Shown here in pieces: positions 1 through 25,749 of a stretch of DNA of 27,388 nt (its first letter is position 1; each line of letters begins with the position of its first letter). The translations under genes were made by a program, and so were the position numbers. This DNA is from a virus (Duplodnaviria > Heunggongvirae > Uroviricota > Caudoviricetes). The notes below the pieces were generated by a model. That model did no database searches and was not told where the DNA came from. It saw only the letters and a program-made list of their open reading frames with translations. The stretch lies in IMG/VR virus record IMGVR_UViG_2563366848_000006; one strand, written 5' to 3'.

Positions 1-3020
<3,020 letters not shown>

Positions 3021-3046
<26 letters not shown>

Positions 3047-3566
3047 TCAGCAACCCCGGTATCAGTTCATCCAGCGCGGCTGCTTTGTTCATGGCTTTGA
3101 TGATATCCCGTTTCAGGAAATCAACATGTCGGTTTTCCAGTTCCGGAAAACGCCGCTGCACCGACAGGGGGATCCCGTCGAGAATACTGGCAATTTCACC
3201 TGCGATCCGCGACAGCACGAAAGTACAGAATGCGGTTTCCACCACTTCAGCGGAGTCTCTGGCATTTTTCAGCTCCTGTGCGTCGGCCTGCGCACGCGTA
3301 AGTCGATGGCGTTCGTACTCAATAGTCCCTGGCTGGAGATCTGTCTCGCTGGCCTGCCGCAGTTCTTCAACTTCCCGGCGCAGCTTTTCGTTCTCAATTT
3401 CAGCATCCCTTTCGGCATACCATTTTATGACGGCGGCAGAATCATAAAGCACCTCATTACCCTTGCCACCGCCTCGCAGAACGGGCATTCCCTGTTCCTG
3501 CCAGTTCTGAATGGTACGGATACTCGCACCGAAAATGTCAGCCAGCTGCTTTTTGTTGACTTCCAT
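3021..3566 (-). CDS. nu1: Terminase small subunit Nu1 (181 aa)
   Basis: ORF track 181 aa MEVNKKQLADIFGASIRTIQNWQEQGMPVLRGGGKGNEVLYDS..., recognised as lambda Nu1 (Qin nohA/nohQ equivalent); sits immediately downstream of cos. Confidence 0.95.
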
Positions 3567-3743
3567 TGTTCATTCCACGGACAAAAACAGAGAAAGGAAA
3601 CGACAAAGGCCAAAAAGCCCGCTTTCAGCACCTGTCGTTTCCTTTCTTTTCAGGGGGTATTTTAAATAAAAACATTAAGTTACGACGAAGAAGAACGGAA
3701 ACACCTTAAACCGGAAAATTTTCATAAATAGCGAAAACCCGCG

Positions 3744-3755
3744 AGGTCGCCGCCC
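3744..3755. other. cosN cohesive-end sequence (reverse complement of GGGCGGCGACCT), flanked by terminase-binding cosB region toward Nu1 (~3567-3743)
   Basis: Plus strand reads aggtcgccgccc followed by cgtaacctgtcgg, the lambda right-end/left-end junction; lambda left-end sequence continues in reverse complement into Nu1. Confidence 0.85.
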
Positions 3756-3954
3756 CGTAACCTGTCGGATCACCGGAAAGGACCCGTAAAGTGATAATGA
3801 TTATCATCTACATATCACAACGTGCGTGGAGGCCATCAAACCACGTCAAATAATCAATTATGACGCAGGTATCGTATTAATTGATCTGCATCAACTTAAC
3901 GTAAAAACAACTTCAGACAATACAAATCAGCGACACTGAATACGGGGCAACCTC

Positions 3955-4188
3955 ATGTCAACGAAGAACAGAACCCGCAGAACAACAACCCGCAACATCC
4001 GCTTTCCTAACCAAATGATTGAACAAATTAACATCGCTCTTGAGCAAAAAGGGTCCGGGAATTTCTCAGCCTGGGTCATTGAAGCCTGCCGCCGGAGACT
4101 GTGCTCAGAAAAAAGAGTTTCTTCTGAAGCAAACAAAGAAAAGAGTGACATTACTGAATTGCTCAGAAAACAGGTCAGACCAGATTGA
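3955..4188 (+). CDS. Small ribbon-helix-helix-like DNA-binding protein (77 aa), ynfO-like
   Basis: ORF track 77 aa; basic N-terminal tail (KNRTRRTTTR) then RNIRFPNQMIEQINIALEQKGSGNFSAWVIEA consistent with a beta-strand/helix/turn/helix RHH fold; position next to nohA matches the K-12 Qin gene order as I recall it. Confidence 0.6.
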   Translation: MSTKNRTRRTTTRNIRFPNQMIEQINIALEQKGSGNFSAWVIEACRRRLCSEKRVSSEANKEKSDITELLRKQVRPD

Positions 4189-4245
4189 AGCAATTTAGAT
4201 AATCGTGCAGACTACGCCCCCTCATATCACATGGAAGGTTTATCT

Positions 4246-4656
4246 ATGGATCAGGTAGTCATTTTTAAACAAATATTCGATAAAGTTCGAAACGATTTAA
4301 ACTATCAATGGTTTTATTCTGAGCTAAAACGTCACAATGTCTCACATTACATTTACTATTTAGCCACAGAGAATGTTCATATTGTATTAAAAAATGATAA
4401 TACAGTGTTATTAAAGGGCCTAAAAAACATTGTGTCTGTCAAATTTTCAAAGGATAGGCATCTTATAGAAACGACCTCTAATAAGCTGAAATCCAGAGAG
4501 ATCACATTTCAGGAATACAGAAGAAACCTTGCTAAAGCAGGAGTTTTTCGGTGGGTTACAAATATCCACGAACAAAAAAGATATTACTATACCTTTGATA
4601 ATTCATTACTATTTACTGAAAGCATCCAGAAAACTACACAGATCTTACCACGCTAA
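4246..4656 (+). CDS. Hypothetical protein, ydfO-like (DUF1398-type), ~136 aa
   Basis: ORF track 4231-4656; start more likely the second ATG at 4246, preceded by GGAAGG. AT-rich, N/Y/K-rich composition; 57 bp downstream of the RHH gene on the same strand. Confidence 0.6.
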
Positions 4657-4761
4657 ACCATAACGTCCGGCTTCTCTCACTCCTGAGCCGGACTGCATTG
4701 GTTTAATAAAAACCATCAACAATTGTGATTTAGATATTCGGAACCATTCAAATATAACAAA

Positions 4762-4788
4762 ACCCCGTAAAAACGAGGTTTATGGATA
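4762..4788 (-). terminator. Putative rho-independent terminator downstream of gnsB-like gene
   Basis: Minus strand reads aaacctcg-ttttta-cggggttt followed by a T-rich run (tgttatattt); one wobble/mismatch in the stem. Confidence 0.35.
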
Positions 4789-4807
4789 AATTTTATTATT
4801 GAATACA

Positions 4808-4984
4808 TCAGATTAAATTAATCTTGACATCATAGCTTTCAAGACCCGTCATTTTTTCCCGTGCGGTAAACTGAATACTGGTAACTTCTTTCCCGGTCTT
4901 TTTCTTAAGTTCAATAATTTTTTTTGTTATATATTCAGAAATATCTGCTTCTGCTTTTGTTTTTAAGTTTTCAATATTCATCAT
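4808..4984 (-). CDS. gnsB: GnsA/GnsB-family small protein (~57 aa)
   Basis: Self-translated minus-strand ORF (below the 60-aa track cut-off): MMNIENLKTKAEADISEYITKKIIELKKKTGKEVTSIQFTAREKMTGLESYDVKINLI, recognised as the GnsA/GnsB family. Confidence 0.7.
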   Translation of the reverse strand: MMNIENLKTKAEADISEYITKKIIELKKKTGKEVTSIQFTAREKMTGLESYDVKINLI

Positions 4985-5152
4985 TTCCTCTTTTAGTCTG
5001 TTATGACTTTCCAGTTACACAGTAAGTCGATTATATGGTGCAAACGTGTAAAAGATAAGATGAAACATCGCAATAATCAACATACGATAGTCTAAATTTT
5101 ACACAAACAGACAAAGAGAATTTTCCTGAATTATCAATGCAATAGCATCAAA

Positions 5153-5383
5153 TCAACTCAAGAGCCTTATTGCTGCTTCCAGAATTTCTTCTGAAGTAAC
5201 ATGTCGATCCGCGGCTACATAAATGACTTTATGATCTCCGGTCAGAGATGGAAACCCTGCGGCCATTACAGTAAGGTGTGTTTTTTCGCCATTTGGATAT
5301 TCACGCATGATGGTGTTAACTCCAGTCATCGCTGGCACTACCACTGCTGGTTCAGAGTTAAAAAAAACTATGATTTTTTTCAT
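5153..5383 (-). CDS. Hypothetical small protein (~76 aa)
   Basis: ORF track 5153-5425 begins at a TTG; first ATG gives MKKIIVFFNSEPAVVVPAMTGVNTIMREYPNGEKTHL... No clear Shine-Dalgarno; function unknown. Confidence 0.45.
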   Translation of the reverse strand: MKKIIVFFNSEPAVVVPAMTGVNTIMREYPNGEKTHLTVMAAGFPSLTGDHKVIYVAADRHVTSEEILEAAIRLLS

Positions 5384-5654
5384 GATGTTACCGTAGTATG
5401 TGAGTATCCATCGAATAGACACCAAGCAAAAAAGCTCCCGAAGGAGCCTTCATTTTCACTTTTTTAAATCCAACGACAGACGGCTGGCATTTAAGTATTG
5501 TGAAATATTATCAAATGTAATCATCATTGATTTACAAAAGATACATTTTGCCCCGAAAGGATTCATGTCAGAAACATCAAAAGATGATGTTCTATACTGG
5601 GAACCATGACAACACGGGCATCTAAAGTGAATATGGTTTGTAATATTGTCTACC

Positions 5655-5867
5655 TCAAAGCGCCACTACATGAACAGCGGCAGGACCTTTAGGTCCGTTC
5701 TCAATACCAAATTCAACTTCCTGATTCTCAGTTAATGTTTTAAAATCGTTGCTCTGAATTGCTGAGAAATGGACAAACACATCTTTGCTGCCATCTTTCG
5801 GCGTGATGAAACCAAAACCTTTTTCAGGGTTAAACCATTTCACTAAACCAGTCATTTTGTTAGACAT
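5655..5867 (-). CDS. cspI: Cold-shock protein, CspA family (70 aa), cspI-like
   Basis: [70 protein letters not shown]: canonical CspA-family RNP motifs (KWFN..KGFGFI, VFVHF); position matches cspI in Qin. Long AT-rich 5' leader 5868-6229. Confidence 0.85.
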
Positions 5868-6229
5868 AATTATTACCTTTTGAAGAAATTAGCCCTTGGG
5901 CAGAATGGTCCGAAAAAAAATATCAGAGAGAAAAACCAACAAGGAAATCTCAAGAGGTACAAATAATAAAATTATAACAATGACTGCTTCAGATAAATTT
6001 GTAACAAACCAGAACACCATTAACGCATGATTAACCACCCATAGCAAGGATTACTTTTGTAAAGAAAAACACAGCAATGAAAGAATAGCTTTATTTATTA
6101 ATAAAACGTGTCATTCTGATTAAGACCTTTTATCTTACCCTTAAGATTTCAGGAATTTTGGCTCATGGAAGAGTCCTTTTTATTTAAATTTTACATTCCG
6201 CGATGTAAATGTTCCGATTTAATATTACC

Positions 6230-7253
<1,024 letters not shown>

Positions 7254-23277: not shown

Positions 23278-25749
23278 ATGAGTAAAGTCTTTATTTGCGC
23301 CGCTATTCCTGACGAACTGGCAACAAGGGAAGAAGGCGCTGTGGCTGTAGCCACAGCCATTGAAGCTGGCGACGAACGCCGTGCTCGAGCAAAATTTCAC
23401 TGGCAATTCCTGGAACATTATCCGGCTGCTCAGGACTGCGCTTATAAATTTATTGTCTGCGAGGATAAACCTGGCATACCCCGCCCTGCCCTCGATTCAT
23501 GGGATGCTGAATATATGCAGGAAAACCGCTGGGATGAGGAGTCTGCTTCTTTTGTCCCGGTTGAGACTGAATCCGATCCGATGAACGTCACTTTTGGCAA
23601 GCTGGCCCCTGAAGTACAGAACGCTGTCATGGTTAAGTTCGACACATGTGAAAACATCACCGTTGATATGGTTATTAGCGCACAGGAATTGTTGCAGGAA
23701 GACATGGCAACATTCGACGGACATATCGTTGAAGCGTTGATGAAAATGCCAGAAGTTAACGCCATGTATCCGGAGCTTAAGTTGCACGCCATTGGGTGGG
23801 TTAAGCATAAATGTATTCCTGGTGCTAAATGGCCCGAAATTCAGGCAGAGATGCGCATCTGGAAAAAACGTCGCGAAGGTGAACGCAAGGAAACCGGAAA
23901 ATACACGTCTGTTGTTGATCTCGCCCGCGCCAGAGCCAATCAACAGTACACTGAAAATTCAACAGGAAAAATCAGCCCGGTCATTGCTGCCATTCATCGC
24001 GAATACAAGCAGACATGGAAAACACTGGATGACGAACTGGCCTACGCTCTCTGGCCTAGTGATGTGGATGCCGGAAACATTGACGGCAGCATCCATCGCT
24101 GGGCAAAAAAAGAAGTTATCGACAACGACCGCGAAGACTGGAAGCGTATCTCGGCATCAATGCGCAAACAGCCTGATGCCCTTCGCTACGACCGCCAAAC
24201 TATTTTTGGCCTTGTCCGTGAGCGTCCGATCGACATTCACAAAGATCCCGTAGCACTGAACAAATATATCTGCGAATACCTGACGACAAAGGGCGTGTTT
24301 GAGAATGAAGAAACAGACCTGGGCACTGTTGATGTTCTCCAGTCATCAGAAACACAAACTGATGCAGTGGAAACTGAGGTATCTGATATCCCAAAAAATG
24401 AAACCGCGCCGGAAGCTGAACCATCTGTAGAGCGTGAGGGGCCGTTCTATTTCCTCTTCGCAGATAAGGACGGAGAAAAATACGGTCGCGCAAACAAACT
24501 CTCTGGTCTGGATAAGGCACTGGCTGCTGGCGCCACTGAAATCACAAAAGAAGAATATTTTGCCCGAAAAAATGGCACATACACGGGCTTACCGCAAAAT
24601 GTAGATACCGCTGAAGATTCAGAACAACCAGAGCCGATAAAAGTTACCGCTGACGAAGTAAACAAAATTATGCAGGCAGCCAATATCAGCCAGCCTGACG
24701 CCGATAAGTTGCTTGCTGCATCACGTGGTGAATTTGTTGAAGGGATTAGTGACCCGAATGATCCGAAATGGGTTAAGGGGCTCCAGACCCGCGATTCTGT
24801 GAACCAGAACCAGCATGAATCGGAACGGAACTACCAAAAAGCGGAACAAAACAGTCCAAATGCGTTACAAAACGAGCCAGAAACGAAACAGCCTGAACCA
24901 GTAGCGCAACAGGAAGTGGAAAAAGTCTGCACCGCCTGCGGTCAGACCGGCGGCGGCAACTGCCCTGATTGTGGCGCGGTGATGGGCGACGCAACATACC
25001 AAGAAACATTCGATGAAGAGTATCAGGTTGAAGTTCAGGAAGATGATCCGGAGGAAATGGAAGGCGCTGAACATCCACACAAGGAGAACACTGGCGGCAA
25101 TCAGCATCACAATAGCGATAATGAAACTGGCGAGACGGCAGATCACCCAATTAAGGTGAACGGTCATCGCGAAATCACATCCACCAGCAGGACGTGTGAC
25201 CATCTAATGATCGACCTTGAAACCATGGGAAAAAATCCTGATGCCCCGATCATCTCAATAGGTGCAATATTTTTCGATCCGCAAACCGGAGATATGGGAC
25301 CGGAATTTAGTAAGACTATCGATCTGGAAACTGCTGGCGGAGTCATTGATCGGGACACCATTAAATGGTGGCTTAAGCAATCACGCGAAGCGCAATCTGC
25401 CATTATGACCGATGAAATCCCGTTAGATGATGCACTGTTACAATTGCGAGAATTTATCGACGAAAACTCCGGTGAATTTTTTGTTCAGGTTTGGGGAAAT
25501 GGAGCCAACTTCGACAACACGATTTTGCGCCGTTCATACGAACGGCAGGGGATCCCCTGCCCGTGGCGTTACTACAACGATCGCGATGTACGCACAATCG
25601 TTGAGCTGGGGAAAGCCATAGACTTCGATGCCAGAACGGCTATTCCATTCGAAGGTGAGCGCCATAATGCACTTGATGACGCCCGTTACCAGGCAAAATA
25701 CGTTTCAGTTATCTGGCAAAAACTGATCCCGAGTCAGGCTGATTCTTAA
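23278..25749 (+). CDS. Large exonuclease-like protein (823 aa; ydfE-like / 'exonuclease VIII'-type) with internal Cys4 zinc ribbon and C-terminal DEDDh 3'-5' exonuclease domain
   Basis: Track ORF 23242-25749; start chosen at MSKVFICAAIPDE (GAGG 9 nt upstream). C-terminal domain carries DEDDh motifs (MIDLETMG; WGNGANFD; HNALDDARY). Zinc-ribbon-like CTACGQTGGGNCPDCG. Long acidic, low-complexity middle region. Confidence 0.75.
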   Translation: MSKVFICAAIPDELATREEGAVAVATAIEAGDERRARAKFHWQFLEHYPAAQDCAYKFIVCEDKPGIPRPALDSWDAEYMQENRWDEESASFVPVETESDPMNVTFGKLAPEVQNAVMVKFDTCENITVDMVISAQELLQEDMATFDGHIVEALMKMPEVNAMYPELKLHAIGWVKHKCIPGAKWPEIQAEMRIWKKRREGERKETGKYTSVVDLARARANQQYTENSTGKISPVIAAIHREYKQTWKTLDDELAYALWPSDVDAGNIDGSIHRWAKKEVIDNDREDWKRISASMRKQPDALRYDRQTIFGLVRERPIDIHKDPVALNKYICEYLTTKGVFENEETDLGTVDVLQSSETQTDAVETEVSDIPKNETAPEAEPSVEREGPFYFLFADKDGEKYGRANKLSGLDKALAAGATEITKEEYFARKNGTYTGLPQNVDTAEDSEQPEPIKVTADEVNKIMQAANISQPDADKLLAASRGEFVEGISDPNDPKWVKGLQTRDSVNQNQHESERNYQKAEQNSPNALQNEPETKQPEPVAQQEVEKVCTACGQTGGGNCPDCGAVMGDATYQETFDEEYQVEVQEDDPEEMEGAEHPHKENTGGNQHHNSDNETGETADHPIKVNGHREITSTSRTCDHLMIDLETMGKNPDAPIISIGAIFFDPQTGDMGPEFSKTIDLETAGGVIDRDTIKWWLKQSREAQSAIMTDEIPLDDALLQLREFIDENSGEFFVQVWGNGANFDNTILRRSYERQGIPCPWRYYNDRDVRTIVELGKAIDFDARTAIPFEGERHNALDDARYQAKYVSVIWQKLIPSQADS

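What the first reader, a model, noticed from the sequence alone, without database searches (positions are those of the whole stretch)
3955..4656. Cos-proximal divergent two-gene module: RHH DNA-binding protein plus AT-rich DUF1398-like protein (ynfO-ydfO-like)
Directly beside cos and transcribed away from the packaging genes are a small ribbon-helix-helix-type protein and, 57 bp downstream on the same strand, a 136-aa protein with strongly AT-rich codon usage. The layout (small DNA-binding protein first, larger effector second, moron position at the virion right end where lambda carries bor) is typical of toxin-antitoxin or abortive-infection/superinfection-exclusion cargo. As far as I know both proteins are functionally uncharacterised.
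Basis: inference. Interest (0 to 1): 0.5.

Follow-up and report, generated by a model that had tools for sequence, protein, structure and literature searches.

The report
ynfO–ydfO beside prophage cos site
These are the already-annotated genes ynfO and ydfO of a Qin-type lambda-like prophage of E. coli, two unrelated accessory genes that sit side by side only because a neighbouring gene was deleted, and nothing indicates that they form a toxin-antitoxin or phage-defence pair.

Summary
ynfO (3955-4188, 77 aa, DUF3950) and ydfO (4246-4656, 136 aa, DUF1398, GC 32%) lie 57 bp apart on the + strand. They start 199 bp from an exact lambda cosN and point away from Nu1/A.

The toxin-antitoxin/abortive-infection reading is not supported.
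- The window is a Qin-family prophage, 100% identical to E. coli B379.
- Phage lambda carries the same region, with ybcW (lambdap79) on the opposite strand between the two genes. The window has the ybcW-less allele, and that junction created YnfO's C-terminal tail.
- The two families are not coupled. DUF3950 occurs in 153 phage records, DUF1398 in 43. About 50 of 160 viral loci have DUF3950 without DUF1398. About 30 diverged DUF1398 genes, including ycgX, have no DUF3950 nearby.
- DUF3950's constant neighbour is the first packaging gene, head-to-head (Nu1 or HNH).
- The first 47 codons of YnfO are under strong purifying selection (dN/dS 0.04-0.08) and resemble Arc/Mnt, but no test reached significance.
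- YdfO has a solved structure (2HH8) with a fold unlike any toxin or enzyme, and overexpression is tolerated.

Both genes are known and their functions are unknown. Interest is low.

The parts
3744..3755 (-). cosN, the lambda cohesive-end sequence GGGCGGCGACCT
   Evidence: Exact and unique match, 0 expected by chance. The flanks are nearly identical to lambda.
3591..3702 (.). cosB with the three R repeats (3591-3605, 3633-3647, 3691-3702) bound by Nu1 in lambda
   Evidence: Repeat search I1/I2/D2 and alignment to lambda. The assignment as Nu1-binding sites rests on established lambda biology.
3955..4104 (+). ynfO conserved domain (codons 1-50): DUF3950, basic N-terminal arm plus an Arc/Mnt-like beta-helix-turn-helix pattern
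   Evidence: Pfam DUF3950 2.7e-21 and NCBIfam YlcI_YnfO_N. Near-invariant in all homologues. dN/dS 0.04-0.08. Homology to Stx-phage copies starts at the ATG and ends near codon 48. AF2 helices 19-32 and 34 onward.
4105..4188 (+). ynfO C-terminal tail (codons 51-77), created by the Qin-type junction; low GC (36%)
   Evidence: Lambda diverges here and carries about 590 bp, including ybcW, in its place. At least 7 unrelated tails exist in 160 loci. Frameshifted tail variants exist. pLDDT is 50-55.
4169..4185 (.). PdhR-box-like palindrome AACAGGTCAGACCAGAT overlapping the 3' end of ynfO, at the point where homology to the lambda ybcV upstream region resumes
   Evidence: GGTCAGACC at 4173-4181. The same 17-mer was reported as a PdhR gSELEX site between ynfO and ydfO in K-12, and a related box lies between ybcV and ybcW (PMC7660256). 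Alignment.
4233..4238 (+). Shine-Dalgarno sequence GGAAGG for the 136-aa ydfO start
   Evidence: Read directly from the sequence. Conserved in lambda.
4246..4656 (+). ydfO: DUF1398, soluble basic protein (pI 9.75) with a duplicated alpha2-beta3 fold
4665..4693 (+). Stable hairpin just after the ydfO stop; possible transcript end or 3' stabiliser, with no U tract
   Evidence: RNA fold -21.9 kcal/mol, z -4.4. Phage matches end at about 4675-4694, which marks a mosaic boundary.

Best explanation
The segment is the Qin-type, ybcW-less allele of the accessory region that lambda itself and DLP12 carry between the lysis genes and cos. It holds two independent genes, not a functional pair.

(1) ynfO. 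It encodes a 50-residue DUF3950 domain under very strong purifying selection, fused to a dispensable tail generated by the junction. The domain most likely folds as an Arc/Mnt-type ribbon-helix-helix and acts as a dimeric DNA-binding regulator made from the strand antisense to the late operon. Its conserved genomic partner is the start of the packaging operon, not ydfO. Its DNA target is unknown.

(2) ydfO. It is a stand-alone member of the Enterobacteriaceae-restricted DUF1398 family. The protein is small, basic and cytoplasmic, with a duplicated alpha2-beta3 fold of its own kind. The gene is AT-rich, has its own upstream region carrying a host PdhR box, is dispensable for lytic growth, and is tolerated when overproduced. 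It most likely modulates host physiology or stress tolerance in the lysogen by binding a host macromolecule rather than by catalysis or killing.

Shown: gene identities, the mosaic history, the lack of coupling, purifying selection, and the fold of YdfO.
Inferred: the RHH fold and DNA binding of YnfO, separate transcription of ydfO, and the physiological role.
For: - Identity and context. The window is 100% identical to the Qin-family prophage of E. coli B379, with ynfO and ydfO annotated there. Similar sequence is found in 4843 of 5426 E. coli genomes.
- Lambda comparison. Window 3560 to about 4101 is nearly identical to lambda. Lambda then has about 590 bp containing ybcW on the opposite strand. 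Homology resumes at 4173, upstream of ybcV.
- Lack of coupling. Phage collection: DUF3950 in 153 records, DUF1398 in 43. Stx phages YYZ-2008, JLK-2012 and 1717 carry DUF3950 alone. Of 160 IMG/VR loci, 101 have DUF1398 downstream, all with the Qin-type tail, and about 50 have none. None of about 30 diverged DUF1398 loci has DUF3950 within 5 kb, and their neighbours are heterogeneous.
- Conserved position. DUF3950 lies head-to-head with Nu1 in 97 loci (median 389 bp) and with HNH in 36 loci (42 bp).
- Selection. dN/dS is 0.04-0.08 for YnfO codons 1-47 and 0.19 for ydfO.
- RHH-like pattern.
- Regulation and phenotypes from papers. PdhR box, and ybcV/ybcW mRNA down about 10-fold in a pdhR mutant (PMC7660256). 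ydfO induced by an ionic liquid, and YdfO overexpression raising oxidative-stress resistance as cited there (PMC4077768). ydfO responds to DicC. lambdap78 is nonessential (PMC10695390).
- lambda-vir mutants that escape the Vulcan defence lose lambdap79. The authors think this likely happened by recombination with Qin, which would give this same arrangement (bioRxiv 10.64898/2026.09.04.749371).
Against: - The RHH assignment is not statistically supported. hhalign probability is about 1% with a very shallow profile. There was no PDB profile hit. The best Foldseek hit has E about 8. The AF2 monomer has pLDDT 67 and no strand.
- No promoter-like site was found for either gene, and no terminator lies between them, so co-transcription in this allele cannot be excluded.
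- No shared candidate operator was found between lambda-type and Stx-type loci, so a DNA target for YnfO is not identified.
- The physiological role of YdfO rests on scattered expression and overexpression reports.
- ydfO is listed as essential only by TraDIS (PMC5821084). This is unexplained. I attribute it to poor transposon access to AT-rich silenced DNA, which is an inference.
Confidence: 0.65

Rival explanations
1. One reading: a type II toxin-antitoxin or abortive-infection/superinfection-exclusion pair. YnfO would be an RHH antitoxin and autorepressor, and YdfO the toxin or effector.
For: The layout is superficially TA-like: a small basic RHH-like protein first and a larger protein 57 bp downstream on the same strand. 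No terminator is predicted between them. The position is typical of lysogen-expressed accessory genes. The Qin-type tail always co-occurs with DUF1398 in 101 loci. The neighbourhood is rich in TA-labelled genes: gnsB, relBE, hokD.
Against: - The families are not coupled in either direction.
- In lambda and DLP12 the homologues are separated by an opposite-strand gene.
- The tail differs completely between lambda and Qin, although the DUF1398 proteins are 79% identical, and it has at least 7 unrelated versions.
- The YdfO fold resembles no toxin.
- No PADLOC hit.
- YdfO/YbcV were overproduced alone for NMR and in the ASKA library without reported lethality.
- The co-occurrence of the tail with DUF1398 is a by-product of the junction that created it.
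Confidence: 0.05
2. A local regulator-target pair, not TA. YnfO would be the transcription factor of the adjacent accessory genes (ydfO/ybcV, ybcW) in lambda- and Qin-type phages.
For: Same strand and adjacent in 101 of 160 loci. YnfO has an RHH-like pattern. The ydfO upstream region is a conserved regulatory stretch.
Against: The DNA-binding domain stays near-identical in phages where the downstream genes are unrelated (KilA-N, Ant, Rz, TonB-like). No shared motif was found in the flanks. The only documented regulators of ydfO/ybcV are the host factor PdhR and the Qin-prophage factor DicC.
Confidence: 0.12
3. YnfO is functionally tied to the packaging module. It could, for example, bind near cos or the first packaging gene to modulate late read-through transcription, terminase expression or cos use, or to interfere with packaging by competing phages or satellites.
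For: DUF3950 lies head-to-head with the first packaging gene in 133 of 160 loci, across two unrelated packaging systems: Nu1/A and HNH-TerS-TerL. Purifying selection is very strong. The family is also reported as an accessory gene of capsid-forming phage-inducible chromosomal islands (cf-PICIs) that carry their own terminase (PMC13612085).
Against: The lysis-packaging boundary is a general insertion site for accessory genes, so position alone is weak evidence. The upstream sequences of lambda-type and Stx-type loci are unrelated, so no common binding site is evident. No packaging role for this region of lambda is known to me (own knowledge).
Confidence: 0.13

Closest known systems
E. coli K-12 Qin prophage genes ynfO (b4533) and ydfO (b1549)
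   Same: Essentially identical. RefSeq annotates the same proteins at this position in strains ML35 and B379. YdfO matches PDB 2HH8 at 135 of 136 residues. The gene order nohA-cos-ynfO-ydfO-gnsB-ynfN-cspI is the same.
   Different: In the window the prophage keeps intact terminase A, portal and head genes. K-12-like Qin (seen here in strain ML35) is truncated after nohA.
Phage lambda right end: unnamed ylcI-like ORF (48145-48303), lambdap79 (ybcW), lambdap78 (ybcV), bor; and DLP12 ylcI-ybcW-ybcV
   Same: Same position and orientation relative to cos and Nu1. DNA is nearly identical through cos and the first ~48 codons of ynfO. ydfO and ybcV are 79% identical in protein.
   Different: Lambda has about 590 bp with ybcW on the opposite strand between the two genes, and a different 64-aa YlcI tail. 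The window lacks ybcW, the reported activator of the Vulcan NADase defence.
Arc/Mnt-type ribbon-helix-helix repressors of phage P22
   Same: Small basic protein. The N(I/L)R(F/W)P strand motif is followed by helix, G-x-(S/N) turn and helix, aligned in register by hhalign. AF2 predicts the two helices.
   Different: No significant sequence, profile or fold match. Dimerisation and DNA binding are untested, and no operator has been identified.
RHH-antitoxin type II TA systems (RelBE, ParDE, CcdAB)
   Same: The order is a small RHH-like protein followed by a larger protein on the same strand.
   Different: There is no conserved pairing, no conserved toxin-binding tail and no toxin fold. The spacer is 57 bp with a host regulator box rather than overlapping genes.
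YcgX, the chromosomal DUF1398 paralogue next to bluR
   Same: Same family (43-46% identity). A stand-alone gene with its own upstream region.
   Different: It is not in a prophage packaging context and has no DUF3950 nearby.

Membership tests
Type II toxin-antitoxin module | The two gene families co-occur as a conserved pair across genomes | tested here: not met
   DUF3950 without DUF1398 in Stx phages and in about 50 of 160 viral loci. DUF1398 without DUF3950 in about 30 diverged loci and in ycgX.
Type II toxin-antitoxin module | Tightly linked bicistronic operon (overlap or a few bp) with an autoregulated promoter upstream of the first gene | tested here: inconclusive
   The spacer is 57 bp and holds a PdhR box. 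No promoter or intergenic terminator is predicted. In lambda the homologues are separated by an opposite-strand gene.
Type II toxin-antitoxin module | The antitoxin has a conserved toxin-binding C-terminal region | tested here: not met
   At least 7 unrelated tails. The tail differs between lambda and Qin although the DUF1398 proteins are 79% identical.
Type II toxin-antitoxin module | The second protein has a known toxin fold or family | tested here: not met
Type II toxin-antitoxin module | The second protein is toxic alone and is neutralised by the first | not testable with these tools
   Indirect evidence only. YdfO was overproduced for NMR (2HH8). The ASKA ybcV clone is viable. YdfO overexpression was reported as protective.
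Known anti-phage defence systems (PADLOC-DB) | Match to a model of a known or candidate defence protein | tested here: not met
   No hit at E up to 1 for YnfO, YdfO, GnsB or YnfN.
Ribbon-helix-helix superfamily (Arc/Mnt-like) | Strand-helix-turn-helix order with alternating polar/hydrophobic strand residues and a G-x-S/T/N turn | tested here: met
   Sequence T12-RNIRFP-18, helix 19-32, G33-S-G-N, helix from 34. In register with Arc FNLRWP and Mnt FNFRMP. AF2 did not draw the strand in the monomer.
Ribbon-helix-helix superfamily (Arc/Mnt-like) | Statistically significant sequence-profile or structural match to an RHH family | tested here: not met
   hhalign probability 1.3% and 0.2%. No RHH Pfam or PDB hit. 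The best Foldseek hit is a TCP domain, E 8.
Ribbon-helix-helix superfamily (Arc/Mnt-like) | Homodimer forming a two-stranded beta-ribbon that binds DNA | not testable with these tools
DUF3950 / YlcI-YnfO family | Match above the curated cut-off | tested here: met
   Pfam 75.6 bits against a cut-off of 25. NCBIfam NF041551 36.6 bits against 30.
DUF1398 / YdfO-like fold | Pfam match above the cut-off and the duplicated alpha2-beta3 structure | tested here: met
Virion structural protein (labels 'head protein' in phrog_413 and 'putative envelope protein') | Structural-protein homology, or a signal or membrane segment | tested here: not met
   No hydrophobic segment (maximum Kyte-Doolittle 0.48). 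A soluble monomeric NMR structure exists. No capsid-like fold. lambdap78 is nonessential. Chromosomal paralogues exist.
Lambda-type cos site | cosN 12-mer plus cosB R repeats next to Nu1 | tested here: met

The most novel reading that the evidence does not exclude
DUF3950 (YnfO/YlcI) could be a dedicated regulator or interference factor of the packaging-operon boundary, made from the antisense strand and shared by lambdoid phages. This would explain two things: why its 50-residue domain is almost frozen while everything around it is reshuffled, and why it always faces the first packaging gene whether that is Nu1 or HNH. Separately, YdfO/YbcV could turn out to be a defence or counter-defence factor, like its former neighbour YbcW, which is sensed by the Vulcan system.
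Probability: 0.13. Interest if true: 0.5.

Novelty: already known. Interest (0 to 1): 0.18.

Why it matters
Little changes for biology. These are annotated genes of Qin, DLP12 and lambda whose functions remain unknown, and the appealing TA/abortive-infection reading can be dropped.

Three points are useful by-products:
1. The adjacency of ynfO and ydfO marks the ybcW-less allele. ybcW (lambdap79) was recently reported to trigger the Vulcan NADase defence, so this allele is the natural escape form.
2. The DUF3950 domain is one of the most conserved small ORFs of E. coli lambdoid phages. It is always positioned against the packaging operon, which makes it a cheap and well-defined target for a ChIP or EMSA experiment.
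3. The database labels 'head protein' and 'envelope protein' for DUF1398 are unfounded.

Tried and rejected
- PADLOC scan of YnfO, YdfO, GnsB and YnfN: no hits.
- PDB sequence and profile searches for YnfO: only chance hits.
- Pfam at E up to 10 for RHH families: only DUF3950.
- Foldseek of the YnfO model against PDB: nothing significant; the top hit was a TCP domain, E 8.
- Foldseek against viral models: nothing with E at or below 0.001.
- The afdb50 library was not available.
- Search for a shared operator motif between lambda-type and Stx-type flanks: one 11-mer, about the chance expectation, rejected.
- BLASTP of the two halves of YdfO: the internal duplication is not detectable in sequence.
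- Promoter scan: no site.
- Rfam scan of 3000-7000: only the cspI thermoregulator.
- A Pasteurella phage 'hit' to YnfO lies on the wrong strand of a repressor gene and was rejected.
- The first attempt at the genome scan failed because the alignment was too diverse.
- Literature searches for ydfO, ynfO, ybcV, ylcI, DUF1398 and DUF3950 gave no functional study.

Full report
WHAT IS THERE

The window is a Qin-family lambdoid prophage of E. coli. It is 100% identical over 25 kb to strain B379. RefSeq annotates there, in order: integrase, dicB, dicA/dicC, relBE, hokD, the Q-like ydfT, the csp genes, the lysis cassette, cspI, ynfN, gnsB, ydfO, ynfO, nohA (Nu1), terminase A, portal and head genes.

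The finding's two ORFs are exactly where stated.
- ynfO is at 3955-4188 (77 aa). It matches Pfam DUF3950 (E 2.7e-21) and NCBIfam YlcI_YnfO_N.
- ydfO is at 4246-4656 (136 aa). It matches Pfam DUF1398 (E 1.5e-46).
- The spacer between them is 57 bp.

An exact cosN lies at 3744-3755 and the cosB R repeats lie at 3591-3702. They sit between ynfO and the oppositely oriented Nu1 and A genes. ydfO has 32% GC, against 53% for Nu1.

Both genes are real coding sequences. The dN/dS of the first 47 codons of ynfO against Stx-phage copies is 0.04-0.08, with dS 0.7-1.4. Differences fall 14-22 to 1-4 in favour of third codon positions. ydfO against lambda ybcV gives 0.19.

HISTORY OF THE ARRANGEMENT

Phage lambda itself carries this region. 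The window is nearly identical to lambda from Nu1 through cos and through about codon 48 of ynfO (window 3560 to about 4101). Lambda then has about 590 bp of its own. This stretch holds a different YlcI C-terminus and ybcW (lambdap79) on the opposite strand. Homology resumes at window 4173 (GGTCAGACCAGATTGAA), in the region upstream of ybcV (lambdap78).

Three things follow.
- The stop codon of ynfO and its residues 51-77 are products of this junction.
- The GC drop occurs inside ynfO at the junction, not between the genes.
- The 'two-gene module' is the ybcW-less allele of a three-gene region.

A 2026 preprint reports that lambdap79 activates the Vulcan NADase defence. It also reports that lambda-vir escape mutants lose lambdap79, likely by recombination with Qin. 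Such a recombination would give this same arrangement.

ARE THE TWO GENES COUPLED? NO.

DUF3950 without DUF1398:
- In 50,697 phage records, DUF3950 is found in 153 and DUF1398 in 43, all of the latter lambda-like.
- Stx phages YYZ-2008, JLK-2012 and 1717 carry DUF3950 alone. It sits between the lysis genes and an HNH-TerS-TerL packaging module.
- In 160 IMG/VR loci, 101 have DUF1398 downstream and about 50 do not. All 101 have the Qin-type tail, and 80 of the loci were selected for near-identity to the window.

DUF1398 without DUF3950:
- A scan of one genome per species found DUF1398 only in Enterobacteriaceae: Escherichia, Shigella, Citrobacter, Klebsiella, Kluyvera, Raoultella and Pseudocitrobacter.
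- None of the roughly 30 diverged copies has DUF3950 within 5 kb, and their neighbours are heterogeneous.
- The E. coli paralogue ycgX sits next to bluR.

The tail of YnfO comes in at least 7 unrelated versions. It differs between lambda and Qin even though their DUF1398 proteins are 79% identical. This rules out a conserved toxin-binding tail.

THE PROTEINS

YnfO. The first ~50 residues are almost invariant in every homologue. Homology between lambda-type and Stx-type DNA begins at the ATG and ends near codon 48, with unrelated flanks on both sides. The sequence T-RNIRFP, helix 19-32, GSGN, helix from 34 aligns in register with Arc FNLRWP and Mnt FNFRMP. That is the RHH pattern, preceded by a basic arm. 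No search reached significance, however, so RHH remains a reasoned inference.

The constant genomic partner of the domain is the first packaging gene, always head-to-head: Nu1 in 97 loci (median 389 bp) and HNH in 36 loci (42 bp). I found no shared operator-like motif.

WHAT PAPERS SAY

- A PdhR box (AAcaGGTcagACCAgaT) was mapped between ynfO and ydfO in K-12. A related box lies between ybcV and ybcW, whose mRNAs fall about 10-fold in a pdhR mutant (PMC7660256). The same 17-mer is at window 4169-4185.
- ydfO is strongly induced by an ionic liquid. YdfO overexpression is cited there as raising oxidative-stress resistance (PMC4077768).
- ydfO responds to DicC overexpression.
- An ASKA ybcV clone is viable and gives a glycogen phenotype.
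- lambdap78 is nonessential for lambda (PMC10695390).
- ydfO is listed as essential only by TraDIS. I cannot explain this beyond poor transposon access to AT-rich DNA, which is an inference.
- No functional study of either family exists in the searchable library.

MOST LIKELY MECHANISM

These are two independent accessory genes.
- YnfO is probably a dimeric RHH-type DNA-binding regulator made from the strand antisense to the late operon. Its target is unknown.
- YdfO is a stand-alone, host-regulated cytoplasmic protein. It probably acts on host physiology by binding a partner, not by killing.

My confidence that this is not a TA or abortive-infection pair, and that the genes are independent, is 0.65 for the whole statement.

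Rivals:
- TA or abortive-infection pair: 0.05.
- YnfO as local regulator of ydfO: 0.12.
- YnfO tied to the packaging boundary: 0.13.

COMPARISON WITH KNOWN SYSTEMS, AND NOVELTY

The segment is a member of the known ynfO/ydfO (Qin) and ylcI/ybcV (DLP12, lambda) genes. It works, at most, like an Arc-type regulator next to an unrelated accessory gene. It is not a member of any TA or defence family tested.

Novelty: already known. Interest is low (0.18). The one point worth an experiment is the frozen DUF3950 domain that always faces the packaging operon.

Noticed in passing
L097-L120, L123, L127, L129-L131, L136 (genome-contig hits): Lambda right-end DNA (79% protein identity to YdfO, identical to lambda ybcV) appears in assemblies of unrelated organisms: Pseudomonas, Kitasatospora, Brevibacillus, Cohnella, Flavobacterium and others. 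Many are 3.5-kb contigs, some labelled as plasmids, for example Arcanobacterium hippocoleae CP136411.1 'plasmid unnamed1', 3566 bp. This looks like sequencing-control lambda DNA left in public assemblies. The many ~3.5-kb ENA contigs with error-ridden protein variants look like the same thing.
   Followed up: partly
window 4101-4173, compared with L002 3550-4140: The window lacks ybcW (lambdap79). A 2026 preprint identifies lambdap79 as the activator of the Vulcan NADase defence. It reports that lambda-vir escapers delete it, likely by recombination with Qin. The window therefore carries the natural 'escape' allele.
   Followed up: partly
window 4169-4185 and 24940-24948: The PdhR-box-like palindrome GGTCAGACC occurs twice in the window, against 0.12 expected. 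The first copy is the published PdhR site upstream of ydfO. The second, in the exonuclease region, was not examined.
   Followed up: partly
window 4808-4984 (-), 5153-5383 (-), 5655-5867 (-), 5628-6013 (-): The rest of the AT-rich island (4200-6200, GC 27-40%) holds three genes. gnsB carries the Pfam label 'GnsA/GnsB toxin' and is convergent with ydfO, with a terminator at 4781-4760. ynfN follows, then cspI with a full cspA thermoregulator 5' UTR (Rfam RF01766, 109 bits).
   Followed up: partly
window 4246-4656; phrog_413; lambda lambdap78: Database names for DUF1398 proteins ('head protein' in PHROGs-derived annotation, 'putative envelope protein' in lambda records) are contradicted by several facts: the soluble structure, the lack of any hydrophobic segment, chromosomal paralogues, and nonessentiality.
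   Followed up: yes
K-12 ydfO (literature): ydfO is listed among genes 'essential only by TraDIS' in E. coli K-12, together with many other small AT-rich horizontally acquired genes. The reason is not given in the passage read.
   Followed up: no
window 3826-3939 (+): A 37-codon ORF lies between cosN and ynfO and is annotated as a CDS in one lambda record (L002 3227-3340). It lies in DNA 100% identical to lambda but has no counterpart in Stx-type loci. It is probably not a gene.
   Followed up: no
L090 3317-3928 and 4001-4420; L140, L142, L145, L155 4515-4832 (-): Some diverged DUF1398 genes have recurring small neighbours. One is a DUF2913 protein just upstream in one locus. Another is a 105-aa protein transcribed divergently just upstream in four Kluyvera loci; a fifth copy (L154) lies downstream of the gene. 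These were not analysed further.
   Followed up: no
L085 3501-3659 (Stx2 phage 1717): The DUF3950 gene of phage 1717 carries a 1-nt deletion at about codon 30, which gives a truncated 52-aa product. Two further truncated copies were seen among the 160 viral loci. The domain is therefore occasionally lost.
   Followed up: no
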